Virus record (IMG/VR): IMGVR_UViG_3300048908_000031
Source: a virus
DNA length: 49,693 nt
Strand: one strand, 5' to 3'
How positions within the stretch are numbered: position 1 is the stretch's first letter; each line of letters starts with the position of its first letter. The position numbers and the translations under genes were made by a program. Positions 1-49,693 of this stretch are shown here, piece after piece. The notes beneath the pieces were generated by a model that had not been told where the DNA came from, did not search any database, and worked only from the letters and a program-made list of their open reading frames with translations.

Positions 1-127
1 CTTCGGGTTTGTTGAGGGCGGCGTTTATTTTCTTGCCGTGATCGCAGGCCGCATAAGCGCTCTTGCGCATCGGCTCTGATGTAAGCTGATCCTCTCGGCT
101 CAAGGTCAGGATAATTCCAGTAAGCAC
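1..127. repeat. Terminal duplication, copy 1 (identical to 49567..49693); closure overlap of a circular or circularly permuted genome
   Basis: Base-for-base identity of 1-127 with 49567-49693. A minus-strand reading frame is continuous across the junction. Confidence 0.95.
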
Positions 128-2251: not shown

Positions 2252-2977
2252 TTAGATGGCCATTTCGGCCTGTGTTTCTCGCAGCCAGATGGGAGAGCTG
2301 TTGTGTGATTCGATCCTATCTGCGATCACATTGGCACGCTGGCCTGCCGTTGGCGGAACGTACATCCCGTAGCGCTTGATGCTGCCTCCGTTGACCGTTG
2401 CATTTGTAGAGTCAGCCGAAGTCAGCGGCAGGTGCTGGAAGATCTCCGGGTTAAGCATGCGCAAACCATGCAGTCGACAGATCGGCCGTCCGTGCTCATC
2501 GCAGATTTCATTCATCGCCGCGCCTATGCGCTTCCACCATGGCTTTGTGCCTGGCGATGACCACTGGCCCGAACTACCGATTGCAACTGTCGGCCATTCA
2601 GTGGCCAGACGCTGAAGACGCTCAAGCGATTCGTGCAAATGCCAGACCGGAACGCCGCGAAACTCCTTTGGCCACTCTGCCAACAGCGCGTCATTCGCCG
2701 CCTCGTTACCGTCGATCACGTCAGGGATAAGTGCCCAATCGAAGCCTGGATGCCTATGCCACTGTTCAACCCAGCGGGTATACCCGTCGACGTCCATTGG
2801 CACGCCCTTCGTCCAGGCCGAGAACGCACCGTTATCAAAAACAAATGACTGGCAGGCCTCGGCAACGATGCCCATGTCATCCTGGCGTGGGAACGGCACT
2901 AATGCATGGCGCCCCATGAGAAAGCTGGCCTTGCAGTTGAGCGTCCCACCGACTGGCGTACCGTGGTAATGGATCAT
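2252..2977 (-). CDS. TGT-superfamily TIM-barrel protein, DpdA-like putative DNA 7-deazaguanine transglycosylase
   Basis: 241 aa with alternating beta/alpha pattern. FVFDNGAFSAW resembles TGT LTDSGGFQ, LHGLRML resembles TGT LMGVG, and LTSADSTNA resembles the catalytic Asp strand. ATGA-coupled to the QueF-like gene. Confidence 0.45.
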   Translation of the reverse strand: MIHYHGTPVGGTLNCKASFLMGRHALVPFPRQDDMGIVAEACQSFVFDNGAFSAWTKGVPMDVDGYTRWVEQWHRHPGFDWALIPDVIDGNEAANDALLAEWPKEFRGVPVWHLHESLERLQRLATEWPTVAIGSSGQWSSPGTKPWWKRIGAAMNEICDEHGRPICRLHGLRMLNPEIFQHLPLTSADSTNATVNGGSIKRYGMYVPPTAGQRANVIADRIESHNSSPIWLRETQAEMAI

Positions 2978-6015: not shown

Positions 6016-6033
6016 GGTCCTTATTGATGGACT
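6016..6033. promoter_or_regulatory. Operator-like inverted repeat, site G (minus strand reads AGTCCatcaataaGGACC)
   Basis: GGTCCttattgatGGACT lies immediately downstream of the putative -10 of the phaZ promoter. Confidence 0.55.
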
Positions 6034-6034
6034 C

Positions 6035-6063
6035 ACTATGCGCTGACAATCCGGTTAGGTCAA
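6035..6063 (-). promoter_or_regulatory. Candidate sigma70 promoter of the phaZ cassette (TTGACC-17-CATAGT)
   Basis: The minus strand reads TTGACC (6058-6063), a 17-nt spacer, then CATAGT (6035-6040). It sits between a terminator and the phaZ start. Confidence 0.45.
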
Positions 6064-6084
6064 CAAACAAGTCAACGATTTATG

Positions 6085-6110
6085 CAAAAAGAAACCCGGC
6101 GAACCGGGCG
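6085..6110 (-). terminator. Rho-independent terminator-like hairpin inside the early operon, upstream of the phaZ cassette
   Basis: Minus-strand RNA has a CCCGG-UUCG-CCGGG stem-loop followed by UUUCUUUUU. Confidence 0.5.
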
Positions 6111-6565: not shown

Positions 6566-8053
6566 TCATGCGACCTCCTGGTCTCCGATTTCTTTAAGCA
6601 GTCGTCGGCCAATCCAGCGAACTACGGGAACGGCTTTGCTATTTCCGATCGCCTTGTAGCGGGGGCCGTCCGGGCACTCGCTTGCTGGCTTGCCGCGCCA
6701 GGGGATGAGGGTGTAATCGTCGGCCATACCCTGTAGGCGTTCGCACTCGACTGGAGTGAGGCGGCGCACAGAGCTCGTATGCGACACAATGTTGGGGCCC
6801 AGAGCTGAGTCCGTGTTGTCGACCTGTTTGCCGTAGTTGCAGGTCAGCGTCTGGGCCACTTCTCGACATGCAACAATCGGCTGACCGCGCCCGGTGCCAT
6901 CCTCGCTGCCGTCGAAACCCTCAGCCTTCAGCGTGTGGGTGATTTCTCCAGTGATGCACACAGCTACCTGGCCGCCGGCGTTTGCATGGCTGCCTGAGTG
7001 ATTCATTGCCCGCAGAGTGGGTGCAATTACCCCGGCATCGGCGCCGTGATCCTTGCAGGAGAAAGCCAGCACTGCATTTTCCTGGCCGTTGTTTCTGCCC
7101 AGAGCGTGCGCTTGGTCAATGCTTACACAGGGGTCTTGCGTACCGTGTACTACAAAGGCTTCGCTTTCGAAGTCCATCCTTCCGCTGGCGCTGGCGCACG
7201 CATTGCGTGCTGGAGCCACCTCAATTGGGCCGCTGGTGTTGTTCCCCCCGAACACCAGAAGGGATTCTCTCGACTCATGGTCACCATATGGGTTGGTCGT
7301 TAAAGCTGCAGTTACGTGAGGGATGTCGTCGGTGCTGTATCCGCCGTTCTTTCGAGCGCCGCCAGTAAGGGTGCCGGCAACATCTTTCCCCTGGCCTCGG
7401 CGCGGCGCAGTATCCCGGCGCACGCCTTCGCGCTCAAAAAGTACCTCGGTGGGATCGAACCCGTCTCGAGCACTTGCGACAACGAACACACGACGGCGTC
7501 GTTGGGCCAGGCCGAAATATTGGGCGTCCAAGATCCGCCATGCGATTGTTCTTTGGGGTCCATACACACAACCAGCGTCCGGCCACCTTTTCCCTGAAGG
7601 CTGCAGTTCGCAGTCTTCCCCAGCAAGCGCGCCAAGAAAGCATCCGAAGGCGTTGCCTTTGTCGGAAAGGACGCCGGGGACGTTTTCCCAGACAACGACA
7701 GAGGCTGGCAGTCCTCGACTGGCTCGAACATAGTCATTTGCATCTGCAAGCTCCACGTATTTGATGGTGAGGGCGCCGCGGGGGTCGGCAAGTCCTTCGC
7801 GCATGCCGGCCACACTGAATGCCTGGCAGGGGGTTCCGCCGACCAGAACGTCCGGCGCCTCGATCTTCCCAGCAAGGACCATGGTCGCAAGCCGTGTCAT
7901 GTCGCCCAGGTTCGGCGTTTGCGGGTAGTGGTGCGCCAGTACGGCGCTGGGGAATGGATCGATTTCAGCGAACCATGCGGCCTTCATTCCGAGCGGGTGC
8001 CAAGCTACCGTAGCAGCCTCTATTCCACTGCAAATGCTTCCGTAGGTGATCAT
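6566..8053 (-). CDS. DNA (cytosine-5)-methyltransferase
   Basis: Motifs in order: I (YGSICSGIEA), IV (GGTPCQAFSVAG), VI (WENVPG), VIII (QRRRRVFVV), IX (RRLTPVECERLQG) and X (AIGNS). The variable region between VIII and IX is long. Confidence 0.95.
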   Translation of the reverse strand: MITYGSICSGIEAATVAWHPLGMKAAWFAEIDPFPSAVLAHHYPQTPNLGDMTRLATMVLAGKIEAPDVLVGGTPCQAFSVAGMREGLADPRGALTIKYVELADANDYVRASRGLPASVVVWENVPGVLSDKGNAFGCFLGALAGEDCELQPSGKRWPDAGCVYGPQRTIAWRILDAQYFGLAQRRRRVFVVASARDGFDPTEVLFEREGVRRDTAPRRGQGKDVAGTLTGGARKNGGYSTDDIPHVTAALTTNPYGDHESRESLLVFGGNNTSGPIEVAPARNACASASGRMDFESEAFVVHGTQDPCVSIDQAHALGRNNGQENAVLAFSCKDHGADAGVIAPTLRAMNHSGSHANAGGQVAVCITGEITHTLKAEGFDGSEDGTGRGQPIVACREVAQTLTCNYGKQVDNTDSALGPNIVSHTSSVRRLTPVECERLQGMADDYTLIPWRGKPASECPDGPRYKAIGNSKAVPVVRWIGRRLLKEIGDQEVA

Positions 8054-12706: not shown

Positions 12707-12767
12707 GCGTGTATCTCCCGCGCCATCCGGGACCGGGGCGCTGCTTGAGTTAGTTGGGTGGAGGGGG

Positions 12768-13025
12768 TTACTTGGCGGCTTTCTTGAGCGCTTGAGTCAG
12801 CATTCGGTAGTAGCGTGCGAACCGCTCCGGCTGTTCATCCTCGAATCGCCAGCCAGGATCTCGGCACCAACCACATTCTTCCTCTGAGCAATCGTGCGCA
12901 GGTTCGTCCCGGATATGCTTCTTGATGATCGCCCGTGCCTCGGCATTGATCGCTGCGGGCTTCGTGAGGAATCGCCGTCGAGCTGTAGGAGCGAAGTAGA
13001 CCTTCGCCTGCTGGGTGGCAATCAT
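12768..13025 (-). CDS. Hypothetical protein (~85 aa)
   Basis: ORF with RBS GGGGAG before MIATQQ. Confidence 0.5.
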   Translation of the reverse strand: MIATQQAKVYFAPTARRRFLTKPAAINAEARAIIKKHIRDEPAHDCSEEECGWCRDPGWRFEDEQPERFARYYRMLTQALKKAAK

Positions 13026-13027
13026 GG

Positions 13028-13183
13028 TCAGTCTCCCCAATATGACCAGTCTTCATGCAGAGCATCTTTCGGCGACCAGCCTGGGAATGTCTCATGAAGG
13101 CTTTCGACGTAAGACCAATTCGCCCAGCCCATGGTCTTGTGCATGTACAGGTAGCCTCGAAGGATCCAAATGAACTTGCTCAT
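13028..13183 (-). CDS. Small hypothetical protein (51 aa), Trp-rich, not in the ORF track
   Basis: Product is MSKFIWILRGYLYMHKTMGWANWSYVESLHETFPGWSPKDALHEDWSYWGD. It has an ATGA overlap upstream, and its stop is 2 nt before the next start. Confidence 0.45.
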   Translation of the reverse strand: MSKFIWILRGYLYMHKTMGWANWSYVESLHETFPGWSPKDALHEDWSYWGD

Positions 13184-14426: not shown

Positions 14427-14861
14427 TCAGTCGGTGTAGGCGATGTATTTGAAGCGGCCGTTTTCTTCGTCAAAGCGCTCAAACCGGCCGCCGAACGTTC
14501 CACGAACCTTTTTCTCAACTTCCTTGATATCGGTACCGACAGGGAAAACCCCTTCCTTGATCATCGAGCAGCTGCTGTGGAGCCTGTCCACCCAATCGAT
14601 TTTCGTCTGGTCTAGAACGCGCGGCCTAGTTTCGATGTATGGCACCGGGCCGCCCATGCTGATAGACGAGATTTCACGAACACACAGCGGATCATCAGCA
14701 GCGCGCCACCCGCAGTCATGGCAGTGCATGTCGGCGTTTTCGTGGCCCCAGCAGGGTGCGGATATGTGGCAGCTGCAATCCTTGGGAGGCTCGATCGCGA
14801 TTACGCCTTCGCAGGCATCGCGACCACATACTTCACCTTCGCAATATCCGAACTTCGACAT
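14427..14861 (-). CDS. Cys/His-rich hypothetical protein (144 aa), possible zinc-binding
   Basis: The N-terminal half has 11 Cys, including CEGEVCGRDAC, CSCH and CHDC. Confidence 0.55.
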   Translation of the reverse strand: MSKFGYCEGEVCGRDACEGVIAIEPPKDCSCHISAPCWGHENADMHCHDCGWRAADDPLCVREISSISMGGPVPYIETRPRVLDQTKIDWVDRLHSSCSMIKEGVFPVGTDIKEVEKKVRGTFGGRFERFDEENGRFKYIAYTD

Positions 14862-14874
14862 GACTTACTCCTTC

Positions 14875-15006
14875 TCAGGCGATGTACCCGCCCGGCATAG
14901 TGAAAACGATCCGTTGCGCAACCGGTGCATGCATCCGCCCCTTGGCGCAGTCGTGAAGATCGGGGCGAGCTTTCCTGACGGTCTTGCGTGGGGTAGTGGC
15001 TTGCAT
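14875..15006 (-). CDS. Small basic hypothetical protein (43 aa), not in the ORF track
   Basis: Product is MQATTPRKTVRKARPDLHDCAKGRMHAPVAQRIVFTMPGGYIA, preceded by a strong RBS GGAGGA. Confidence 0.45.
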   Translation of the reverse strand: MQATTPRKTVRKARPDLHDCAKGRMHAPVAQRIVFTMPGGYIA

Positions 15007-15106
15007 GATTCCTCCGGGATGCGTCTGTAATTAGTCCTTGCGGCTTGCGACAGCGGGTGTCCGTCGTCTCTCTAATGCGAGCGCTTTAGCTTCCATGTCT
15101 GACTCC

Positions 15107-15274
15107 CTACCAGGCGCCGAACCAAGCGCCAGTGCCGTGAACGATGGCCACCGGGAAGAACAATGCCCCAGCCACCAGAAAGCCCCAGCTCGCCGCCTTG
15201 AGGCAGACGATGACGTGGGTGAACCAGGCGGCGATCGCCCAGAGCAGGACAAACAAGCCGATGTGATGCTTCAT
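15107..15274 (-). CDS. Small two-TM membrane protein (55 aa), first gene of the leftward operon, not in the ORF track
   Basis: Product is MKHHIGLFVLLWAIAAWFTHVIVCLKAASWGFLVAGALFFPVAIVHGTGAWFGAW with RBS GGAG. It is preferred over the overlapping 73-aa ORF 15031..15252. Confidence 0.5.
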   Translation of the reverse strand: MKHHIGLFVLLWAIAAWFTHVIVCLKAASWGFLVAGALFFPVAIVHGTGAWFGAW

Positions 15275-15282
15275 GCGTGCTT

Positions 15283-15300
15283 ACTCCGTAATTACGGACC
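15283..15300. promoter_or_regulatory. Operator-like inverted repeat, site A (ACTCCgtaattacGGACC; core TCCGTAATTACGGA is a perfect 14-bp palindrome)
   Basis: Lies 9 bp upstream of the first leftward gene. An additional GGACC-N4-GGTCC hairpin (15296-15309) abuts it, and a TTGACC -35-like hexamer is on the minus strand at 15310-15315. Confidence 0.6.
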
Positions 15301-15369
15301 TGCGGGTCCGGTCAAGGTCGATTCTTTCCCGCTGCAGCCTTTCTCAAAGCCGCACTGGTGAAAGGTGTT

Positions 15370-15404
15370 CCCAGGCCCGCTACTGGCGACGGCCTGGGTT
15401 TATT
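15370..15404 (+). terminator. Stable hairpin (CCCAGGCC-N13-GGCCTGGG) followed by TTTATT on the plus strand. It also directly follows the stop of a possible minus-strand small ORF.
   Basis: An 8-bp GC stem is read directly. The T-tract occurs only in the plus orientation, so function and orientation are uncertain. Confidence 0.4.
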
Positions 15405-15522
15405 GCGTAAGCGGTGTTGGCCAGTTGCCCGCTGCTGATTGCAGGTCTGGCCAGTCGTCTTCGTGGTGGGCTTCGAGCTTCCTACTCATGGCGTCAATCA
15501 GCATCTGTTCGCCATGGATCAC
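15400..15522 (-). CDS. Possible small acidic protein (40 aa, GTG start; 34 or 29 aa from internal ATGs)
   Basis: SD AAGGA lies 4 nt before the GTG. Product is VIHGEQMLIDAMSRKLEAHHEDDWPDLQSAAGNWPTPLTQ. The stop is immediately followed by the 15370-15398 hairpin. Confidence 0.3.
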   Translation of the reverse strand: MIHGEQMLIDAMSRKLEAHHEDDWPDLQSAAGNWPTPLTQ

Positions 15523-15618
15523 AGGTCCTTACAACATGCACGCTACAGCTCTGAATGCCCGATTTAGTGGGGCAGGGTGCATGAGGTCCGGCGTTCCCAG
15601 CCGAGGCTATCGGGATCG

Positions 15619-15792
15619 CTAATTCAAATCTGTTCGCCGCAACCCGCTACTGGCGTCGGTCACTGGCTTGAATCTTCTGTCATTCCAGTCGCGGGCCTTT
15701 CGGCTTGTCTCCCACTGGATAACGGGTTTTGGTGCTTTACGCTGCGCACCCAGGTCCGTTGCCAACCCTCTGAACTGTTGAGGCCGGTTCAT
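15619..15792 (-). CDS. Possible small basic protein (57 aa; 69 aa from TTG at 15828) in the position where CI normally sits
   Basis: Product is MNRPQQFRGLATDLGAQRKAPKPVIQWETSRKARDWNDRRFKPV... with a weak HTH-like GLATDLGAQRKA segment. Operator site B lies just upstream. The ORF has three AGA codons and only moderate GC3. Confidence 0.3.
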   Translation of the reverse strand: MNRPQQFRGLATDLGAQRKAPKPVIQWETSRKARDWNDRRFKPVTDASSGLRRTDLN

Positions 15793-15844
15793 CGCTGCCT
15801 TGAAGCTGGGCCGGTGGTTATCCGGCAAGGTCTGTTGCTGTCGA

Positions 15845-15862
15845 AGTCCGTATGTCTGGACT
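15845..15862. promoter_or_regulatory. Operator-like inverted repeat, site B (AGTCCgtatgtctGGACT, exact arms)
   Basis: Read directly; intergenic, within the regulatory region. Confidence 0.6.
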
Positions 15863-15957
15863 CGATGGATGTAAAGTTACATGCAGGCAAAAGAATGCGC
15901 AAGGGGTATTTCAAACATTTTTCGTAGCGCGTGAAATGAACCGGGCGCCGATATGGT

Positions 15958-15975
15958 AGTCCATCAAAAAGGACG
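15958..15975. promoter_or_regulatory. Operator-like inverted repeat, site H (AGTCCatcaaaaaGGACG)
   Basis: Abuts the -35 of the candidate rightward promoter. Its spacer is nearly identical to that of site G. Confidence 0.55.
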
Positions 15976-16005
15976 TTGCGCCGAGGGTTGCTTAAGGGCA
16001 ATAAT
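15976..16005 (+). promoter_or_regulatory. Candidate rightward early promoter (TTGCGC-18-AATAAT)
   Basis: The hexamers are read directly, about 30 bp upstream of the cro-like start codon. Confidence 0.4.
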
Positions 16006-16033
16006 CAGCCACCGACCAGAAAGGACTTACACA

Positions 16034-16264
16034 ATGGCTATTCGACATAAAGGCCTTTTGGCCTGGCTGAAAACGGCAACGGACGAAGAGATCCAGGAAG
16101 CTGGAGTTACTCGCGACCATTTGAAATTGATCGGCTATGGTTACCGCAAGGCATCGCCTGAAGTAGCAGCGGTAGCCGAGGTGGTCACCAAAGGCGTCGT
16201 CACCCGCAAGGAGCTGTTCCCCGACACCTGGGAGCGGATCTGGCCCGAGCTGAAAGCAGCATGA
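16034..16264 (+). CDS. Cro/YdaS-like HTH transcriptional regulator
   Basis: 76 aa from MAIRHKGLLAWLK with RBS AAAGGA. The C-terminal ...KGVVTRKELFPDTWERIWPEL is typical of the YdaS/Cro-like family. Confidence 0.65.
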   Translation: MAIRHKGLLAWLKTATDEEIQEAGVTRDHLKLIGYGYRKASPEVAAVAEVVTKGVVTRKELFPDTWERIWPELKAA

Positions 16265-16316
16265 AACACGAACCCGGGTAAATTCCCGGAATAAACCCAC
16301 TGACTAGGTAACCCCT

Positions 16317-16523
16317 ATGGCATACGATGACAAAATCCACCGGCATGACCGGCAAGTGAAGATCATGCTCAACACGGGCATCTTCGATGACCTTCGCGAC
16401 GTGGCCGTGGCCAACGGCCTGCAGCACAGCGTCCTCGCTCGCGAAGTGATCGAAGCCTTCCTCAAGGCTGTGGAAGAAACCGGCAAACTCCCCCTGGGCC
16501 TGGATCAAAGAAAACGCGCCTGA
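16317..16523 (+). CDS. Ribbon-helix-helix (CopG/Arc-like) DNA-binding protein
   Basis: VKIMLNTGIFDDLRDVAVANGLQHSVLAREVIEAFL shows a beta-strand followed by two helices. Confidence 0.5.
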   Translation: MAYDDKIHRHDRQVKIMLNTGIFDDLRDVAVANGLQHSVLAREVIEAFLKAVEETGKLPLGLDQRKRA

Positions 16524-16548
16524 TCACGTAATTAAGGACTAATACAAG

Positions 16549-16806
16549 ATGCCCGGAAAAAATGCAGTTGTGATGGACTTCAGCGCTTCTTCTCAGCAGA
16601 GACTGGAGCGCATAGCGTCAATGTTGGGCATTACCGTGGATGATCTGGCCGACGCGGCTCTGACCATCGGCCTACCGGGCATCAAGCAGGCGCTGCAAAG
16701 CGCCTGTGATACCAGCCCCGTGGAAAAGGTTCAGGTGGGTGGCGTGATGGCCAATGTGGTGTGTTTGTGGAGCAAGCAGCCTCTCGCCAGGGAGGCCAGT
16801 GGCTGA
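16549..16806 (+). CDS. Hypothetical protein (85 aa)
   Basis: ORF with an SD overlapping a half-operator (ATCACgtaattaaGGACT at 16523-16540). Confidence 0.5.
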   Translation: MPGKNAVVMDFSASSQQRLERIASMLGITVDDLADAALTIGLPGIKQALQSACDTSPVEKVQVGGVMANVVCLWSKQPLAREASG

Positions 16807-16812
16807 CCGCGA

Positions 16813-16830
16813 AGTCCGTAATTCTGGACT
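16813..16830. promoter_or_regulatory. Operator-like inverted repeat, site C (AGTCCgtaattctGGACT, exact arms)
   Basis: Intergenic, between the 16806 stop and the terminator at 16871-16900. Confidence 0.6.
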
Positions 16831-16870
16831 GGTAGACCGGCTACAGGAAAGATGCAAGAATCACCAGACG

Positions 16871-16900
16871 AAAAAAAGCCACCCGGCAAGGTGGCTTCTC
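16871..16900. terminator. Hairpin AGCCACC-cggcaa-GGTGGCT flanked by A7 upstream and TTCTC downstream
   Basis: The U-tract is much better for a minus-strand transcript (TTTTTTT) than for the plus strand. Confidence 0.5.
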
Positions 16901-16922
16901 AATAACGCAGTACAAATAAGGT

Positions 16923-17660
16923 TTGAAGATAATGGCATACCCTCAATCCGTCTGCAACACGGACAGCAATAGCGCGCCACAAAATGCGACAAACGCAAAC
17001 GTAGCGCGCAACATTTCCATGAGTAGCCGAGAAATCGCAGAGCTTGTCGGGAAGGATCATAAGCACGTTATTCGCGATATCCGCGCAATGCTGGATACCC
17101 TGGAAAAAGATGGCTCAAATCTGGACCATCAATTCAGCGAGTCGAAAGACCGTCGCGGCTACACGACAAAGTTCGACCTTGATCGCGACCTGACCGAAAC
17201 CCTGATCACCGGCTACAGCGTCACCCTTCGCTACCGGGTGATCATGCGGCTGCGCGAGCTTGAGTCCGCCCTGGCCGAGATTGCAGAATCCAAGGCCTCC
17301 CGCAATCGTGCCCGCCTTGAAGCCCCGCACCTGACCAAAGCCATCAAAATTCAGCGCCTCGCCATCGGCAAGGATCTGGCCCCCTACGTATTCAGCAATG
17401 AATTCGACTTGATCAACCGCACTGTCCTCGGCATGTCCTCGAAGCAGTACCGGGCCGCTCATGGCCTGGCCGCCAACGAACCTATCCGCGACACCCTGAC
17501 ACCCTGCCAAATCTTCGCTATCGAGCACATGCAGCGCCTCAACGCCTCGCTAATCGATATCGGCCTGCCCTTTGATCAACGCAAAGGGAAGTTGTGCCAA
17601 GTGTTCGTGCTTCAGCACCAGCGCGCATTGATTAGCGAAACTTTGAGGATTGAAGCATGA
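16923..17660 (+). CDS. Rha-family phage regulatory protein (antirepressor-like)
   Basis: ISMSSREIAELVGKDHKHVIRDIRAMLDTL is the characteristic Rha N-terminal domain. The start is uncertain (16923 or 16932). Confidence 0.8.
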   Translation: MKIMAYPQSVCNTDSNSAPQNATNANVARNISMSSREIAELVGKDHKHVIRDIRAMLDTLEKDGSNLDHQFSESKDRRGYTTKFDLDRDLTETLITGYSVTLRYRVIMRLRELESALAEIAESKASRNRARLEAPHLTKAIKIQRLAIGKDLAPYVFSNEFDLINRTVLGMSSKQYRAAHGLAANEPIRDTLTPCQIFAIEHMQRLNASLIDIGLPFDQRKGKLCQVFVLQHQRALISETLRIEA

Positions 17661-20710: not shown

Positions 20711-20883
20711 CCCCTCCCCAAGCAATGCAGGTCGCCCGCCTCCAGTCCCAAGGCTTCGCGCTGACCCAGGAACTCAAGGACGCCGTCAGGATGGCTCGCG
20801 GCGCTGACATTCGGATCGTGATGAGCGACGGCACGACTAAGCGTGGTCACCATGAGAGCAGGCCGCACAAGGAGAAAGTGTGA
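20707..20883 (+). CDS. Small hypothetical protein (58 aa), not in the ORF track
   Basis: Product is MTPPQAMQVARLQSQGFALTQELKDAVRMARGADIRIVMSDGTTKRGHHESRPHKEKV. It has an ATGA overlap upstream and a TGATG overlap downstream. Confidence 0.45.
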   Translation: MTPPQAMQVARLQSQGFALTQELKDAVRMARGADIRIVMSDGTTKRGHHESRPHKEKV

Positions 20884-21683
20884 TGGAACACATAAATTTG
20901 ATGCATGGAGACTGCCTGGAACTGATGAAAGCGGTACCGGACTGCAGTGTCGACATGATCTGTGCGGATCTTCCCTATGGAACAACGCAGTGCGCATGGG
21001 ACGTGATCATCGCCTTCGAACCACTCTGGCGCGAATACCTGCGGATCGCCAAGCCCGAGGCGGCCATCGTGCTGTGCGCGGCTCAACCGTTCGCCTCGAT
21101 GGTAGTGGCGAGCAACCCGAAGCACTACCGGTACGAGTGGATTTGGGAGAAGGGAAACGCCACCGGATTCCTGAATGCCAAGAAGCAGCCGTTGCGAGCG
21201 CATGAGAGCGCGCAAGTGTTCTACCGCAAGCAGCCGGTCTTCAATCCGCAGATGTCCACAGGGCACGAACGGAAAACCAGCAAGCGCAAGACGGTGAACT
21301 CCGAGTGCTACGGCAAGGCCTTGTCGCTCACTGAATACGACTCGACAGAGCGGTACCCGCGCTCGGTCCAGTTCTTCTCGAGCGACAAGCAGTCGGGATC
21401 GTTCCATCCAACGCAAAAGCCAGTGGCGTGGATGGAGTTCCTGATCAATACCTACAGCAACCCTGGCCAGACGGTCATGGATAACTCCATGGGGAGCGGT
21501 ACCACGGGTGTGGCTTGCGTGAATCTTGGCCGTAAATTCATCGGAATTGAGAAAGACCTCGACGAGCACGGGAACTCTCTCGGGTATATGGAAATCGCGA
21601 AAAAACGAATTAGTGATGCGATCGCCATTCGCGATACTCCGGTACCGCAACTCGATATGTTCAAGGCGGTGGCTCATGGCTGA
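20883..21683 (+). CDS. Beta-class N6-adenine/N4-cytosine DNA methyltransferase
   Basis: Motif IV variant CADLPYG, then FHPTQKP and the AdoMet motif VMDNSMGSGTTGVACVNLGRKFIGIEKD. Confidence 0.9.
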   Translation: MEHINLMHGDCLELMKAVPDCSVDMICADLPYGTTQCAWDVIIAFEPLWREYLRIAKPEAAIVLCAAQPFASMVVASNPKHYRYEWIWEKGNATGFLNAKKQPLRAHESAQVFYRKQPVFNPQMSTGHERKTSKRKTVNSECYGKALSLTEYDSTERYPRSVQFFSSDKQSGSFHPTQKPVAWMEFLINTYSNPGQTVMDNSMGSGTTGVACVNLGRKFIGIEKDLDEHGNSLGYMEIAKKRISDAIAIRDTPVPQLDMFKAVAHG

Positions 21684-22099: not shown

Positions 22100-22117
22100 A
22101 GTCCCTAACCACGGACT
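22100..22117. promoter_or_regulatory. Operator-like inverted repeat, site E (AGTCCctaaccacGGACT, exact arms)
   Basis: Occupies the -35 position, 6 nt upstream of a perfect TATAAT. Confidence 0.6.
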
Positions 22118-22123
22118 ATGCGC

Positions 22124-22129
22124 TATAAT
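22124..22129 (+). promoter_or_regulatory. Perfect TATAAT -10 hexamer with no recognisable -35
   Basis: Read directly, 34 nt upstream of the proposed start of the Ref-like gene. Confidence 0.4.
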
Positions 22130-22162
22130 CGCCTGACGAAAACGGACGTGAGGCAGGCGGTT

Positions 22163-24404: not shown

Positions 24405-24422
24405 GAGTCCTTAATCAGGGAC
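24405..24422. promoter_or_regulatory. Operator-like inverted repeat, site D (AGTCCttaatcagGGACT, exact arms)
   Basis: Lies about 40-55 nt downstream of the late promoter. Confidence 0.6.
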
Positions 24423-26340: not shown

Positions 26341-27753
26341 ATGGCCGAGTCAAAACCGCGAATTCAAGTCCAAGATGGAAAGATTGTCTCGACTGATAGC
26401 CTGTCCAACCTGGTCGCCAACATCGGAACCGGTCGCGACAAGCGCACGCACAACAGCTTCGGTTATGAATACGTCAACCAGATGGAGCTGGAAGCGGCCT
26501 ATCAGTCCAACTGGATCGCCCGTCGCATCGTCGACAAGCCGAACGAAGACGCGCTGCGTGAATGGCGCACCTTCAACGGCAAGCAGGCCAAGCTGATCGA
26601 AACCGAAGAGCGCCGCCTCGGTGTGCAGCAACACTACCTCGACACCTGCTGCTGGGCCGACCTGTACGGTGGCGCGGCATTGCTGATGGTGACTGACCAG
26701 GATCTGGGCAAGCAGCTTGACCTGAAGAAGATCAAGAAGGGCAGCCTGAAGAACCTGGTGGTCCTCGATCGCTGGGACATCCAGCCGACCGACTTCAACC
26801 TGACCGACCCGCTCCAGCCGAACTGGATGCAGCCGAACTACTACATGATGGTCAACGGCACGCAGCCGATCCACTACAGCCACATCATCCGCCGCACCGG
26901 GGCTCGCCTGCCTCGGCGCATGCGCATGTTCGAACAGGGCTGGGGTGACAGTCGCCTACGCCGCTGCATGTCTGACCTGCGCGACGTGGTGGCCACCAAG
27001 GGCGGTATTGCCTCTCTGGTGCTGGAAGCCAACGTCGACACAATCGGCGTCAAGGGCCTGCAAGCGGCCCTGGCCAGTGCGCAGAGCAATCAGGTCACCG
27101 AGCGTTACCGCCTGTTCGGCATGCTCAAGTCGATCGTGAACCTCGGCCTGCTCGATCAGGATAACGAGAAATACGAACGCAACAGCATCAGCTTCAGCGG
27201 CCTCAGTCAGATCATGGAGCAGTTCATGGTGTGGACGGCGGGCGCTGCTGAAATGCCGGTTACCGAGTTGTGGGGCCAATCGGCTGCTGGGCTCAGTGCT
27301 ACCGGTGAAGGCGACCGCAAGACCTACGAGGGCACGATCAAGGGCAAGCAGGACGGCCAGATGCGTCTGGACCTCGAACTGCTGGACCAAGTATTGATCC
27401 GCTCGGCGCTGGGCACTTACCCGGAAGGCATTGAGTTCGAGTGGAATCCGCTGTCGCTGCCAACCGGTGTCGAGCAGGCCCAGGAAGGTCTGGCCGATGC
27501 GCAGGCTGATGGTATCTACCTCGAAACCGGGGTGATTCGCCCAAGCCATGCCATGCGCCGCGCTCAAGCGAAAGGCACCTACGCCATCACCGACGAGCAG
27601 ATCGCCGCCCAAGAGGCACTGGAGAAGGATCAGGACAATGCAGCCTTCGACAAAGACGACGGCGCCGACCTCCCCGGTTTCTCCCTCGGCGGCCCTGACG
27701 GCGATAAACCAGACGCTCCTGGCAAAACGAAAGAAGAAGCCGCGGGCGCCTAA
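26341..27753 (+). CDS. Portal protein (DUF1073-type)
   Basis: 470 aa with SLSNLVANIGTGRDKRTHNSFGY at the N-terminus and an acidic C-terminal tail. It is followed by a MuF-like gene. Confidence 0.75.
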   Translation: MAESKPRIQVQDGKIVSTDSLSNLVANIGTGRDKRTHNSFGYEYVNQMELEAAYQSNWIARRIVDKPNEDALREWRTFNGKQAKLIETEERRLGVQQHYLDTCCWADLYGGAALLMVTDQDLGKQLDLKKIKKGSLKNLVVLDRWDIQPTDFNLTDPLQPNWMQPNYYMMVNGTQPIHYSHIIRRTGARLPRRMRMFEQGWGDSRLRRCMSDLRDVVATKGGIASLVLEANVDTIGVKGLQAALASAQSNQVTERYRLFGMLKSIVNLGLLDQDNEKYERNSISFSGLSQIMEQFMVWTAGAAEMPVTELWGQSAAGLSATGEGDRKTYEGTIKGKQDGQMRLDLELLDQVLIRSALGTYPEGIEFEWNPLSLPTGVEQAQEGLADAQADGIYLETGVIRPSHAMRRAQAKGTYAITDEQIAAQEALEKDQDNAAFDKDDGADLPGFSLGGPDGDKPDAPGKTKEEAAGA

Positions 27754-27760
27754 GCCGGTG

Positions 27761-28609
27761 ATGCCCAGCAAGGAGGCTGAGCTGTACTACCACCGGCAGC
27801 TGCGGTCACTGGTGCAGGCGATGGCTTCCGAGCTGGCTGCCTCCATCGTGCCCGAGCTGAAGCGGCTGAAGCCTGACTACATCGCCGATGCAATGGTGAC
27901 ACTGGACGGCTGGACGGATCAGATCCTTGCCGCCATCCGCCGCGTGTCGCAGCGCTATACCTCGACCCTGTTCGACGTGCAGGCAGCCCGCGTGGCAGCT
28001 GGCACCATCAGTCGCGCCGAGGCCGACAACGCCGAAGATTTCCGCGACTCGATCAACAAGGCCGTGGGCATCGACTTCCAGCTGATTACCAAGCCCAAGG
28101 GCATGGTCGACTATCTGGAGGCCTCGACCGCCGAGAACGTCAACCTGATCAAGTCGATCCCGGCTGACTACTTCAAGCAGGTCGAGACGATCGTACTGGG
28201 CGGCATGAAGAGCGGTCTTGCCCCTACGGCCATCGCCAAGCAGATTCAGGAAGAGACGGGTGTCACCGCGCGAAGGGCCAAGCTGATTGCCCGCGACCAG
28301 GTGTCGAAGCTCAACTCCGACCTGACCCGCCAGCGCCAGACGGCAGCCGGGATCGAGTTCTATCAGGCCAAGGATGCAGGCGACGTGCGTGTATCGGGCA
28401 ACCCGGCCGGCAAGTATCCGAACGCCAAGATCAGCTGCTGGGATATCGCCCGCCAAGACATCGGTTACGGCCCTGGCGTGTACAAGGTCGCTGACGGTGC
28501 TAGCTGGAAAGGCGAAACCGGCCTCCATCCCGGGAAGCATCACGTGCTTTGCCGCTGCGTTGGAATCGCCATGATCCCCGGCGTGAACTACTTCCCCGAC
28601 AAGGGCTGA
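27761..28609 (+). CDS. Head morphogenesis protein (Mu F / SPP1 gp7-like)
   Basis: ARRAKLIARDQVSKLNSDLTRQRQTAAGIEFYQ...HHVLCRC. An alternative upstream start at 27638 (RBS GGAGAAGGA) would overlap the portal 3' end. Confidence 0.7.
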   Translation: MPSKEAELYYHRQLRSLVQAMASELAASIVPELKRLKPDYIADAMVTLDGWTDQILAAIRRVSQRYTSTLFDVQAARVAAGTISRAEADNAEDFRDSINKAVGIDFQLITKPKGMVDYLEASTAENVNLIKSIPADYFKQVETIVLGGMKSGLAPTAIAKQIQEETGVTARRAKLIARDQVSKLNSDLTRQRQTAAGIEFYQAKDAGDVRVSGNPAGKYPNAKISCWDIARQDIGYGPGVYKVADGASWKGETGLHPGKHHVLCRCVGIAMIPGVNYFPDKG

Positions 28610-28611
28610 CC

Positions 28612-29718
28612 ATGAAAAGAATGACCATCGACGAGGCCTTCAAGCCTACGTCGCGAACACTCACGCCCGAGGGATTCCTCTGCGTGAAAGGGGTTGCAGC
28701 GCGCACCGGGGTTTATCAGTACCTGTCGAGCGAGCTGGACCTCGACGGCCCCGAGCGGATCGTCAACGTCTACCGACCGCCCGCCCAGGTGTTCGACCCC
28801 GAGTCGATGGCGACCTTCGCCGACAAGGATGTGACCAACGACCACCCGGACGATCTGGTCGACTCAACCACCTTCAAGGAGGTGTCAGTCGGCCATGTGC
28901 GCGGCGTCGAGCAGGACGGCGACAACCTGGTGGTGGACCTGATCATCAAGGACCAGACGGCCATCGACGACATCGACTCCGGCAAGGCCGAACTCTCCCC
29001 CGGCTACCTGGCCGAGTACGTCGAAGCCCCCGGCATCGCCCCCGACGGCACCGCCTACGAATACGAGCAGCGTGACATCCAGATCAACCACGTCGCCGTT
29101 GTAGAAGCAGCGCGAGGCGGCAAGGTCGCCCGCATTTTTGACCACAAACCGAAAGGTGTACCAATGGCACAACGGAAAGTCTTTTTAGACTCCAAGAAAA
29201 GCCGCTCCATCATTCTCGACGAAGAGGCAGCTTCGGTAGTCGAAGACGCCGTTGCAGCGCTTCAGAAGTTCGCGGATGAAGAGTCGGATCGCGCAGACAA
29301 GGCCGAAGCCACCAAGGACGAAGCCGAAGAGAAACTGGAAGAGGCCAAGAAGGAAACTTCTGACGCCGCGATCGGCGCCAAAGTCAAAGCCACCCTCGAC
29401 ACCATCGCCCTCGCCTCCAAGGTTGTGAAAGCCTTCGACGCCAAAGGCCTGGTCTCCCCGCTCGAAATCAAGCGTGCCGCCATGGCGCAGCTGAAGCCGA
29501 CCCGCGACTGGGCTGGCAAGTCCGAAGCTTACGTGCTGGCTGCCTTCGACGCCGCTGCTGATGAGGCGAAGGAAACCGAGGACGAGGATGACGACGAGGA
29601 CAAGTCGAAAACCAACGACAGCCTGGCGCGCTTCGCCGCAGACGCCGCCAAGCGTGGCCTGAAGCCGACCACTGACGGTTCGGACGCCTACAACACATTC
29701 CTGCGAGGTGGCAAGTAA
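28612..29718 (+). CDS. DUF2213-like prohead protease/scaffolding fusion
   Basis: TPEGFLCVKGVAARTGVYQY...ELSPGY...INHVAVV, then an E/K/A/D-rich scaffold-like C-terminal half. Confidence 0.6.
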   Translation: MKRMTIDEAFKPTSRTLTPEGFLCVKGVAARTGVYQYLSSELDLDGPERIVNVYRPPAQVFDPESMATFADKDVTNDHPDDLVDSTTFKEVSVGHVRGVEQDGDNLVVDLIIKDQTAIDDIDSGKAELSPGYLAEYVEAPGIAPDGTAYEYEQRDIQINHVAVVEAARGGKVARIFDHKPKGVPMAQRKVFLDSKKSRSIILDEEAASVVEDAVAALQKFADEESDRADKAEATKDEAEEKLEEAKKETSDAAIGAKVKATLDTIALASKVVKAFDAKGLVSPLEIKRAAMAQLKPTRDWAGKSEAYVLAAFDAAADEAKETEDEDDDEDKSKTNDSLARFAADAAKRGLKPTTDGSDAYNTFLRGGK

Positions 29719-30227
29719 TGGGTACTGCAGTCGATACCTTTGGCCAGTACGCTGGCAAGGCCTACGAAGGTCAGGTCAATGACCTGTCGATGGCCGACAT
29801 CACCACCGCCGTGGTAACGCTCGCTGTTCCGTTCGGTCGCGCCGTGGTGTCCGACACTGCGGATCGCTCGGGCAAGCTGCCTGCCGCCGGTGCCGGTTTC
29901 TTCCTCGGCGTCTCGGCCCGCAACGTGGTCGGTGTCAGTGGCACCTACCAGACCGGTCAGTCCTCGGACAATGGCAACGTGGTCGGCGGCTACCGCTCCG
30001 GTCAAGAAGCCAGCCTGGTCGCACACGGTCGCATCTGGGTCAAAACCCTGGGCGGTGCCGTCAAGGGTGCGCAGGTCTACGCCCTGCCAACCACTGGCGA
30101 GATCACCAACGCTGCGACCGCCGGCAACCACGTTCTGGCCGGCTGCACGTTCCTGACCGCCGCTGCCGCTGGTGAATTGGTGCTGGTACAGATCAAAGCC
30201 ATCGCGCCTACCACCATCGCCGCATAA
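29718..30227 (+). CDS. Capsid decoration/cement-like protein
   Basis: 169 aa, Gly/Ala/Val-rich, directly upstream of the major capsid gene. Confidence 0.45.
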   Translation: MGTAVDTFGQYAGKAYEGQVNDLSMADITTAVVTLAVPFGRAVVSDTADRSGKLPAAGAGFFLGVSARNVVGVSGTYQTGQSSDNGNVVGGYRSGQEASLVAHGRIWVKTLGGAVKGAQVYALPTTGEITNAATAGNHVLAGCTFLTAAAAGELVLVQIKAIAPTTIAA

Positions 30228-49484: not shown

Positions 49485-49693
49485 GACTTGGCCTCTTCGG
49501 GTTTGTTGTGTGGGCATTCAGCGCAGTGACCGCCAAGGCCGCATATTCCGCCGTCTGACTTGCAGGCTTCGGGTTTGTTGAGGGCGGCGTTTATTTTCTT
49601 GCCGTGATCGCAGGCCGCATAAGCGCTCTTGCGCATCGGCTCTGATGTAAGCTGATCCTCTCGGCTCAAGGTCAGGATAATTCCAGTAAGCAC
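49481..49693 (-). CDS. C-terminal part of the junction-spanning hypothetical protein (same gene as 1..430)
   Basis: In phase with 1..430 once the 127-bp duplication is collapsed. Confidence 0.7.
   Translation of the reverse strand: MLTGIILTLSREDQLTSEPMRKSAYAACDHGKKINAALNKPEACKSDGGICGLGGHCAECPHNKPEEAKS
49567..49693. repeat. Terminal duplication, copy 2 (identical to 1..127)
   Basis: Base-for-base identity. Confidence 0.95.

What the first reader, a model, noticed from the sequence alone, without database searches (positions are those of the whole stretch)
15275..16033. CI-sized (~760 bp) divergent control region with no repressor gene - only two doubtful mini-ORFs, repeats and hairpins
The leftward and rightward early operons are separated by about 760 bp. 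This is roughly the size of a CI gene plus operators, yet no ORF resembles an HTH/S24 repressor. The supplied ORFs here have non-protein-like sequences.

What is present:
- three copies of the AGTCC-N8-GGAC operator (15283, 15845, 15958);
- an ATGTAA-ag-TTACAT palindrome (15869-15882);
- a strong 8-bp GC hairpin (15370-15398);
- a possible 57-69-aa basic protein with a weak HTH-like segment (15619..15792/15828), preceded by operator B;
- a possible 40-aa acidic peptide (15400..15522) with a good SD, ending right at the hairpin.

Three options follow. The region may encode a very small non-canonical repressor, an RNA-based immunity determinant, or the decayed remnant of a CI gene in a phage that has become obligately lytic. 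Rha and Cro-like genes are retained, so the switch architecture is atypical.
Basis: partly seen in the sequence, partly recalled or inferred. Interest (0 to 1): 0.65.

Follow-up and report, generated by a model that had tools for sequence, protein, structure and literature searches.

The report
Structured leader RNA, not a lost repressor
The 760-base "empty" control region of this Pseudomonas phage is not a decayed repressor gene: it holds two back-to-back early promoters and a roughly 590-base, tightly folded untranslated leader RNA made of two modules shared by about 200 Pseudomonas prophage and tailocin loci, absent from Rfam and from the papers I searched, and perhaps used to carry RNA polymerase through stop signals.

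Summary

- **Mini-ORFs:** neither encodes a protein. In 81 and 125 homologous loci they shift frame or stop early.
- **RNA modules:** 15365-15628 (module A) and 15629-15826 (module B) are conserved structured RNAs on the minus strand, with strong compensatory base-pair changes. Each ends in the same hairpin, whose tip is CGC-CAGUA-GCG. That hairpin explains the 17-bp repeat.
- **Position in relatives:** the modules lie downstream of the early-left promoter pL, often after an rrn-type boxA, and directly upstream of the first early-left gene. A canonical CI/PrtR repressor gene lies further upstream. They therefore form the pL leader and are not a CI remnant.
- **This phage:** I found no boxA, CI, integrase, N or Q. 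pL and pR sit back to back.
- **Operators:** GTCC-N8-GGAC occurs six times in the genome against 0.9 expected. All six are kept at homologous places in the sister phage.
- **Tailocins:** module B also heads Pseudomonas tailocin operons, between prtR and hol, often just before an intrinsic terminator.

Most likely function (inferred, not shown): cis-acting control of transcription elongation, by antitermination or protection from Rho. There is no Rfam match, and none of the papers I searched describes it.

The parts
15976..16005 (+). Putative rightward early promoter pR: -35 TTGCGC (15976-15981), 18-nt spacer, -10 AATAAT (16000-16005). SD AAAGGA lies at 16020-16025 and the Cro-like gene's ATG at 16034.
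   Evidence: Read from the sequence. It falls below the consensus scan threshold, so it is inferred. The Cro-like product matches an HTH family (PF15943 weakly, phrog_35).
15959..15974 (.). Operator-like 16-mer GTCCATCAAAAAGGAC, directly upstream of the pR -35.
   Evidence: Exact GTCC-N8-GGAC. Identical in sister phage G001. 15 of 16 bases match the site at 6017 when read on the other strand.
15874..15902 (-). Putative leftward early promoter pL: -35 TTGCGC (15902-15897), 17-nt spacer, -10 TAACTT (15879-15874). The start would lie near 15866. The palindrome 15869-15882 overlaps the -10.
   Evidence: It aligns with the pL promoters of relatives (TTGAC[ACG]-17-TAAATT/TAACTT). In those, the conserved transcript start CCAUCG follows at the same distance. 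Below the scan threshold; inferred.
15846..15861 (.). Operator-like 16-mer GTCCGTATGTCTGGAC at about +5 to +21 of pL. It occupies the place where many relatives have boxA.
   Evidence: The site at 6017 has the same geometry (promoter, then operator).
15810..15826 (-). Small leader hairpin GCCGG-AUAACCA-CCGGC (boxB-like position, 7-nt loop).
   Evidence: Conserved as GCCGG-AU(A/C)AC(C/A)A-CCGGC in B-type leaders. In some relatives it follows boxA CGCUCUUUA by about 12 nt.
15629..15803 (-). Module B: conserved structured RNA core of about 135 nt plus its closing hairpin (15637-15667, tip CGC-CAGUA-GCG). The mini-ORF 15619-15828 lies on it and is not coding.
   Evidence: Covariance model R1 scores 153 bits, E 3e-47, and this is the only copy in the window. 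127 distinct homologues: 94.8% of cells paired against 20-39% in slid controls; 17 pairs and 330 cells with compensatory change. The ORF is not conserved.
15365..15628 (-). Module A: conserved structured RNA of about 260 nt (stems P1-P4) ending in the hairpin 15370-15398 (same CGC-CAGUA-GCG tip). The mini-ORF 15400-15522 lies on it and is not coding.
   Evidence: Sharp conservation borders at 15365 and 15625 in 82 loci. 50 predicted pairs: 97.6% paired against 35-41% slid; 14 pairs and 169 cells compensatory; 0 of 500 shuffles reach this. Frequent G.U pairs fit only the minus strand. The ORF is read in three frames.
15324..15364 (-). UTR hairpin of the family UUUCAC(C/U)-[inner hairpin]-GGGAAA that precedes the first early-left gene in most relatives.
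   Evidence: The outer arms are conserved while the inner hairpins differ between loci, whatever the first gene is.
15284..15309 (.). Two overlapping palindromes before the ribosome-binding site: the operator-like GTCCGTAATTACGGAG (15299-15284 on the minus strand, one mismatch) and GGACC-TGCG-GGTCC (15296-15309). SD GGAG lies at 15287-15284 and the ATG at 15274.
   Evidence: This 40-nt insert occurs only in the window and in G001. Its left half equals that of the exact site at 16814.
16814..16829 (.). A further operator-like 16-mer GTCCGTAATTCTGGAC, upstream of the Rha gene. It belongs to the same set as 6017, 22101 and 24407.

Best explanation
The region is the early control region of a CI-less Pseudomonas phage. 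It has two parts.

**(a) A compact pair of divergent promoters.** pL lies at about 15874-15902 and pR at about 15976-16005. They are flanked by 16-bp GTCC-N8-GGAC operators for an unidentified phage DNA-binding protein.

**(b) A roughly 590-nt untranslated, highly structured leader.** It belongs to the early-left transcript and runs on the minus strand from about 15866 to the ATG at 15274. In order, the leader contains:
- a small hairpin;
- RNA module B;
- a hairpin with a CGC-CAGUA-GCG tip;
- RNA module A;
- a second copy of that hairpin;
- a UTR hairpin;
- two palindromes that overlap the ribosome-binding site.

**Shown here.** The ORFs are not coding. Both modules are conserved RNAs with covarying stems on the minus strand. 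In relatives they lie between pL (often followed by boxA) and the first early-left gene.

**Inferred.** The leader acts in cis on the RNA polymerase that makes it. It would keep a long untranslated transcript from ending early, either through Rho or at the operon's internal terminators. It would thus stand in for the N/nut system that these phages lack.
For: **Non-coding**
-.

**Conserved as discrete DNA modules in otherwise unrelated phages**
-.

**RNA structure on the minus strand**
- Searches give the covariation.
- The whole leader folds with z = -3.07 on the minus strand and -1.94 on the plus strand.

**Leader position**
- In L046 the order is terminator of the upstream gene, TTGACA-18-TAAATT, boxA CGCTCTTTAACA about 45 nt later, module A, hairpin, UTR hairpin, SD, ATG.
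- An exact boxA is present in 47 of the 91 loci held at that point, nearly all of them module-A loci.
- CI-like genes lie upstream on the same strand.
- There is no room for a promoter between the last hairpin and the SD.

**Need for read-through**
- The window's left operon holds intrinsic terminators at 9289-9272 and 6109-6094.
- 47 of 79 loci with module B alone have a canonical terminator just after the module and before the first gene.
- Module B heads the long tailocin operon downstream of prtR.

**No protein partner**
- No protein-coding gene consistently accompanies the modules.
- No N- or Q-like protein was found in the window.
Against: - There are no transcript data.
- The window's promoters are weak matches that the consensus scan did not flag.
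- The window lacks boxA, even allowing 3 mismatches. It has no U-tract terminator inside its leader, so the clearest antitermination hallmarks are seen only in relatives.
- In the tailocin loci a second promoter after the leader terminator cannot be excluded. The module there could be a separate small RNA.
- Module A is optional. It is present in about 20 of 99 module-B loci. It is bracketed by repeats of the hairpin, as an inserted cargo would be.
Confidence: 0.6

Rival explanations
1. One or both modules, especially the optional module A, are released as stable trans-acting small RNAs. They would be an RNA 'moron', or a P4/P1-type RNA immunity factor, cut out of the leader by processing or by termination at the hairpins.
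For: - Module A has sharp borders and is flanked by the same hairpin on both sides.
- Its distribution is mosaic and independent of module B.
- In tailocin loci module B is followed by a true terminator, as in a small-RNA gene.
- The phage has no CI.
Against: - No conserved promoter lies directly upstream of module A.
- The closing hairpins have no U-tract in most phage loci, including the window.
- No C4, IsrK or other Rfam family matches the region.
- No complementary target repeats occur beyond chance: 10 matches against 6.2 expected, none in the leader.
- Most carriers have a normal CI.
Confidence: 0.17
2. The leader only tunes the first gene. It would control translation or mRNA stability through the UTR hairpin and the palindromes that overlap the SD, with no effect on transcription elongation.
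For: - The UTR hairpin ends about 10 nt before the SD in most loci.
- In the window CCGUAAUUACGG overlaps the SD GGAG.
- Com-type zinc-finger translational regulators are the first gene in 17 loci.
Against: - About 400 nt of conserved, covarying RNA upstream would be left unexplained.
- The modules are kept whatever the first gene is.
- boxA, a transcription signal, accompanies them in about half of the relatives.
Confidence: 0.13
3. The region encodes a very small non-canonical repressor or peptide: the 40-aa or the 57-69-aa ORF.
For: - Both ORFs exist.
- The 40-aa ORF has an AAGGA sequence 3 nt before its GUG.
- The first ~19 codons are well conserved.
Against: - Frame shifts and early stops occur among homologues.
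- The conserved first codons coincide with stem P3, where the changes are compensatory base-pair changes.
- There are no family matches.
Confidence: 0.03
4. The region is the decayed remnant of a CI gene in a phage that became lytic.
For: - The size is similar to cI plus its operators.
- No CI or integrase was found in the genome.
Against: - There is no residual similarity to CI proteins of relatives.
- About 460 bp are homologous to leader RNA that lies outside cI in relatives.
- The remaining roughly 130 bp between pL and pR hold promoters and operators.
- The arrangement and all six operators are shared with sister phage G001, so this is a lineage trait and not fresh decay.
Confidence: 0.02

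Closest known systems
Lambda pL leader: nutL (boxA + boxB) with N protein and host Nus factors
   Same: - It has the same place: directly downstream of pL and upstream of the first early-left gene.
- It is also a long structured untranslated leader.
- About half of the relatives carry an rrn/lambda-type boxA about 45 nt after the start, in some followed by a small hairpin.
   Different: - The window has no boxA.
- No N-like gene was found.
- The small hairpin has a 7-nt AUAACCA loop, not a GNRA-like pentaloop.
- The conserved RNA is far larger (about 135 + 260 nt) and is unrelated in sequence.
HK022 putL/putR RNAs (factor-independent, cis-acting antitermination RNAs)
   Same: - The phage lacks N.
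- Folded RNA is made early in the operon and would act on the polymerase that transcribes it.
- No partner protein co-occurs with it.
   Different: - From my own knowledge, put is about 70 nt with two stem-loops and is present in both the pL and the pR operons.
- Here the RNA is in the left operon only.
- The module B model finds nothing in the HK022 immunity region; the best score is 5.7 bits.
rrn operon antitermination leader (boxA with NusB/E/A/G, S4 and SuhB)
   Same: Relatives carry the exact rrn-type boxA CGCUCUUUAACA. The RNA downstream is long, untranslated and structured, and needs protection from Rho.
   Different: This is a phage and tailocin context. The window's copy has lost or never had boxA. 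The modules have no rRNA-leader homology (no Rfam match).
P4 CI RNA, P1/P7 C4 RNA and IsrK (RNA immunity factors processed from an early leader)
   Same: The RNA is encoded in the leader of an early operon of a phage that lacks a protein repressor at that place.
   Different: - There is no Rfam match to C4 or IsrK.
- There are no complementary seqA/seqC-type repeats; the two repeats are identical, not complementary.
- Most carriers have a CI protein.
prtR-hol intergenic region of Pseudomonas R-tailocin clusters (516 bp in P. protegens CHA0, used as the Phol reporter; PMC12066065)
   Same: It holds module B, the CAGUA hairpin and boxA.
   Different: That paper treats the region as a promoter fragment. 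A text search finds no 'UTR', 'terminator', 'leader' or 'non-coding' in it. The tailocin version has a GGA-rich stretch and a terminator, and lacks module A.

Membership tests
CI/LexA-type phage repressor gene (intact or decayed) | Residual similarity to an HTH plus S24 peptidase protein | tested here: not met
   tblastn with two CI proteins of relatives gives no hit in 15275-16033. The best hit anywhere in the window has E = 0.056. No Pfam or PHROG match for any ORF in the region.
CI/LexA-type phage repressor gene (intact or decayed) | In relatives the same interval is occupied by the repressor gene | tested here: not met
   In relatives the homologous DNA is the pL leader. CI/PrtR lies 0.35-2.3 kb upstream of it on the same strand.
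Small protein-coding gene (mini-repressor or peptide) | Reading frame kept among homologues | tested here: not met
   Three frames and early stops for the 40-aa ORF. Variable stops and no start for the 69-aa ORF.
Structured non-coding RNA | Base pairs kept through compensatory changes, more than in controls | tested here: met
   Module A: 14 pairs and 169 cells, 0 of 500 shuffles, 97.6% paired against 35-41% slid. Module B: 17 pairs and 330 cells, 94.8% against 20-39%.
Structured non-coding RNA | Strand assignment | tested here: met
   G.U pairs present in 37-80 of 81 sequences at four positions would be A.C mismatches on the plus strand. The fold z-score is better on the minus strand.
Lambda-type nut site | boxA (CGCUCUUUA-like) near the start of the transcript | tested here: not met
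   None within 3 mismatches in 15275-16033. Present in 47 of the 91 loci held at that point.
Lambda-type nut site | boxB hairpin with a GNRA-like pentaloop, and an N protein with an arginine-rich motif | tested here: inconclusive
   A 5-bp hairpin with a 7-nt loop is present (15810-15826), and the conserved CGC-CAGUA-GCG pentaloop hairpins are present. No N-family PHROG was found among the left-operon ORFs tested. The binding partner is unknown.
HK022 put RNA | Sequence or structure homology to putL/putR | tested here: not met
   Model R1 against HK022 27500-30100 with filters off: best 5.7 bits. Only module B was tested.
HK022 put RNA | Cis-acting, factor-independent suppression of terminators | not testable with these tools
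   This needs reporter or in vitro transcription assays.
C4 / IsrK / P4 CI antisense immunity RNAs | Match to the Rfam models; complementary target repeats | tested here: not met
   cmscan at E <= 1 finds none in 14500-17000. The loop complement does not occur beyond chance.
Stand-alone small-RNA gene | Own promoter and Rho-independent terminator | tested here: not met
   No promoter-like or terminator-like site is found in 15200-16100. The sequence upstream of module A comes in several conserved types, none with a -35.

The most novel reading that the evidence does not exclude
Modules B and A, each capped by the conserved CGC-CAGUA-GCG hairpin, would be a third kind of phage processive-antitermination signal, beside N/nut and put. 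This would be a large cis-acting RNA that makes RNA polymerase resistant to terminators and Rho, using host factors only. It would work with boxA in many carriers and without it in this phage. It would govern both the early-left operons of N-less Pseudomonas phages and the 15-30-kb tailocin operons.
Probability: 0.3. Interest if true: 0.8.

Novelty: new variant of a known kind. Interest (0 to 1): 0.6.

Why it matters
Lambda-like Pseudomonas phages and Pseudomonas tailocins have long SOS-controlled operons with internal terminators, but in the loci examined here no N-type antiterminator turned up.

A conserved, covarying leader RNA at the head of these operons is a concrete and testable candidate for how they are read through. 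It is present in roughly 200 loci held here. It is absent from Rfam and from the papers I searched.

The RNA also lies inside the prtR-hol fragment that is used as a 'promoter' reporter for tailocin expression. Effects ascribed to that promoter may therefore partly be RNA effects.

For annotation, the result removes two false small genes. It also shows that an 'empty' CI-sized gap need not be a lost repressor.

This particular phage lacks both CI and boxA. That makes it a natural minimal case for testing what the RNA does on its own.

Tried and rejected
- **Rfam:** cmscan at E <= 1 on 14500-17000 gave only a chance RNAI hit outside the region. On three related loci at E <= 0.5 it gave only a weak RsmZ-like hit in a tailocin leader.
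- **tRNA/tmRNA scan:** nothing in the region.
- **Protein families:** no Pfam or PHROG match for the five ORFs of the region.
- **CI remnant:** tblastn was negative.
- **boxA in the window:** absent.
- **Kissing or antisense targets for the conserved loop:** not above chance.
- **Own promoter for module A:** none is conserved.
- **put homology:** none for module B.
- **A protein that always travels with the modules:** none. The first genes vary and include LuxR-type, zinc-ribbon, Com-like, holin and a 55-aa membrane protein.
- **Own assembly:** not held. I used the sister virus record G001 instead.
- **Literature:** three searches found no description of this RNA.
Full report
**What the window is.** The last 127 bases repeat the first 127. 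The window is therefore a closed, complete phage contig of about 49.6 kb. Its own assembly is not held. The nearest record is an IMG/VR virus, G001, which is 92% identical over 15275-16033. The gene content is that of a lambda-like Pseudomonas siphovirus.
- A leftward early operon holds a Sak4-like annealing protein, SSB, an exonuclease, methylases and small unknown genes.
- A rightward operon starts with a 76-aa Cro-like HTH protein at 16034-16264, followed by Rha and O-like replication genes.
- I found no CI-type repressor, no integrase and no N- or Q-type antiterminator in about 50 ORFs tested. The only recombinase is a 206-aa resolvase-type serine recombinase at 1281-1901.

**The observation.** The ORF-poor 760 bp, the GC hairpin 15370-15398 and the palindrome 15869-15882 are as described.
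- The operator motif is exact at 15845/15846 and at 15958/15959. The third copy, at 15284-15299, has one mismatch.
- The core GTCC-N8-GGAC occurs six times in the genome: 6017, 15846, 15959, 16814, 22101 and 24407. The expectation is 0.91, and none of 100 shuffles reached six.
- The sister phage also has six sites, at the homologous places. Where the inner bases differ, the GTCC/GGAC arms are kept. The reversed-pattern control gives zero.
- Several sites adjoin promoter-like sequences. For example, TTGACC-17-CATAGT is followed by the site at 6017, with the same geometry as at pL.
- These are credible operators for an unidentified phage protein.

**The mini-ORFs are not genes.** An exact 25-mer from 15517-15541 recovered 19 loci from species-representative genomes and 68 viral contigs. 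All the genome loci are Pseudomonas, apart from two contigs labelled Gordonia.
- Across 81 distinct sequences the 40-aa ORF keeps only its first ~19 codons. After that the same conserved nucleotides are read in all three frames, and four copies stop after 5-9 codons.
- For the 69-aa ORF, 35 of 125 homologues have a stop 19 nt after the conserved anchor. Starts and stops are scattered.

**Two conserved RNA modules on the minus strand.** BLAST against phage records showed that only parts of the region are conserved, and that they are shared with otherwise unrelated Pseudomonas phages.

*Module A (15365-15628)*
- Its borders are sharp in 82 loci.
- RNAalifold on 81 sequences predicts 50 pairs in 10 helices.
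- 97.6% of cells are paired, against 35-41% when the partners are slid.
- 14 pairs and 169 cells carry double compensatory changes. The shuffled means are 8.0 pairs and 43.9 cells, and 0 of 500 shuffles reach the observed values.
- Four positions are G.U in 37-80 sequences. These would be A.C on the plus strand, so the RNA is made from the minus strand.

*Module B (15629-15826)*
- In 127 distinct sequences the core is almost invariant.
- The variable stems covary: 94.8% of cells are paired against 20-39% slid, with 17 pairs and 330 cells compensatory.
- Covariance model R1 finds one copy in the window, at 15629-15803 on the minus strand, with 153 bits.

*Shared features*
- Both modules end in a hairpin whose tip is CGC-CAGUA-GCG. 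This is the 17-bp direct repeat at 15377 and 15644.
- The whole 591-nt minus-strand stretch folds with z = -3.07, against -1.94 for the plus strand.
- Rfam has no match.

**Where the modules sit in relatives.** L046 gives the clearest picture, in this order:
- the terminator of the upstream gene;
- the promoter TTGACA-18-TAAATT;
- boxA CGCTCTTTAACA about 45 nt after the start;
- about 200 nt of further conserved RNA;
- module A;
- the CAGUA hairpin;
- a 'UTR hairpin' of the form UUUCACC-[inner hairpin]-GGGAAA;
- the SD and ATG of the first early-left gene.

Other points from the relatives:
- The exact boxA 12-mer is present in 47 of the 91 loci held at that point.
- CI-like HTH plus S24 genes lie further upstream on the same strand in at least 25 module-A loci. 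PrtR-like genes do so in 83 of 134 module-B loci.
- The UTR hairpin ends about 10 nt before the SD, whatever the first gene is. The first gene therefore has to be transcribed through the modules.
- B-type leaders begin at the pL start with CCAUCG. Some continue directly into the small hairpin GCCGG-AUAACAA-CCGGC, and others pass first through boxA CGCUCUUUAG.
- The window aligns with these promoters: TTGCGC-17-TAACTT, then CCAUCG. In place of boxA it has the operator 15846-15861.

The 760 bp therefore consist of pR, pL, their operators and a ~590-nt leader. The cI gene is absent altogether rather than decayed. tblastn with relatives' CI proteins finds nothing.

**The link to tailocins.** Sixty module-B loci continue into a holin gene and P2-type baseplate genes. 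In GenBank record EU982300 (P. fluorescens Q8r1-96 prophage 01), module B lies between prtR (906-1709) and Orf3/hol. In L107 the order is as follows:
- a promoter with ATGCAT-type operators;
- a GGA-rich stretch;
- boxA;
- module B;
- the CAGUA hairpin;
- the terminator GCCCGGGCGACCGGGCUUUUU;
- hol, about 70 nt further on.

A canonical terminator follows the hairpin in 47 of 79 loci with module B alone, and in 0 of 20 loci with both modules. A 2025 paper uses the 516-bp prtR1-hol region as a promoter reporter, and the words for a leader, UTR or terminator do not occur in its text (PMC12066065).

**Distribution.** Module B is found by BLAST in 18 of 301 genomes sampled across the family. The covariance model finds it in 2 of 400 genomes sampled across the class, and both of those also appear in the family-level sample. 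It therefore appears confined to part of Pseudomonas.

**Mechanism.** What is shown is a conserved, structured, non-coding leader. Its function is inferred. Five things point to control of transcription elongation:
- it sits at the head of long repressor-controlled operons;
- it is often linked to boxA;
- terminators lie right after it in tailocins, and inside the window's left operon at 9289-9272 and 6109-6094;
- it is kept whatever gene follows it;
- no partner protein accompanies it.

The role could be processive antitermination or shielding of a long untranslated RNA from Rho. I put about 0.85 on 'structured non-coding pL leader' and about 0.4 on the antitermination role. Module B shows no homology to the HK022 immunity region that holds put. 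The rivals are trans-acting small RNAs, purely translational control, a mini-protein and a CI remnant. They are weighed in their own sections.

**Earlier notes of this scan**. Those notes describe boxA-headed structured leaders at pL in other Pseudomonas prophages. They led me to look for boxA, and I checked that here: it is present in many relatives and absent from this window. They are AI notes and I do not count them as evidence.

**Limits.** The window's promoters are weak matches. A second promoter in the tailocin leaders is not excluded. I built no covariance model for module A.

Noticed in passing
L107 1703-1835 (minus strand); seen also in other tailocin-type loci: The tailocin leaders carry about seven AAGGA/CAGGGA motifs between the promoter and boxA. 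They give a weak PrrB/RsmZ hit (22 bits, gathering score 44, E 0.2). This may be an RsmA/RsmE-binding stretch that links tailocin expression to Gac/Rsm.
   Followed up: partly
EU982300.1 1709-2025; L092-L208: Module B, the CAGUA hairpin and an intrinsic terminator lie in the prtR-hol intergenic region of Pseudomonas R-tailocin clusters. That region is used in the literature as a plain promoter fragment.
   Followed up: partly
window 6017-6109: In the left operon an intrinsic terminator (6109-6094, minus strand) is followed by TTGACC-17-CATAGT and the operator 6032-6017. These precede an alpha/beta-hydrolase gene, which looks like an operator-controlled moron.
   Followed up: partly
window 22101-22130 and 24407-24422: Two further GTCC-N8-GGAC sites lie outside the early region. 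One sits 7 nt before a perfect TATAAT (22125-22130). Both are kept in the sister phage with changed inner bases.
   Followed up: partly
window 1-127 and 49567-49693: The terminal 127-bp overlap shows that the window is a circularly closed, complete phage contig.
   Followed up: yes
L005, L021 (JBNQGB01 contigs labelled Gordonia sp. IEGM753): Two multi-hundred-kb contigs labelled Gordonia carry the Pseudomonas prophage 25-mer. The assembly is probably mislabelled or mixed.
   Followed up: no
window 12751-12834: ARAGORN calls a tRNA-Arg(TCT) on the plus strand inside the leftward operon. It overlaps the minus-strand ORF 12768-13040, which matches phrog_21496, so the tRNA call is doubtful.
   Followed up: no
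window 2252-2977, 6566-8053, 20880-21683: A queuine tRNA-ribosyltransferase-like (DpdA-type) gene and two DNA methyltransferases suggest that the phage modifies its DNA.
   Followed up: no
about 350-800 nt upstream of module A in 58 loci (e.g. L036, L008): A gene of about 112 aa, with the conserved core ...RLD...W..L..IS/ET.G..., occurs in either orientation between the repressor gene and pL.
   Followed up: no
first gene after the leader in 17 module-B loci; EU982300.1 Orf3: Mu Com-like zinc-finger translational regulators are a frequent first gene after the leader. They could bind one of the leader hairpins in those loci. The window has none.
   Followed up: no
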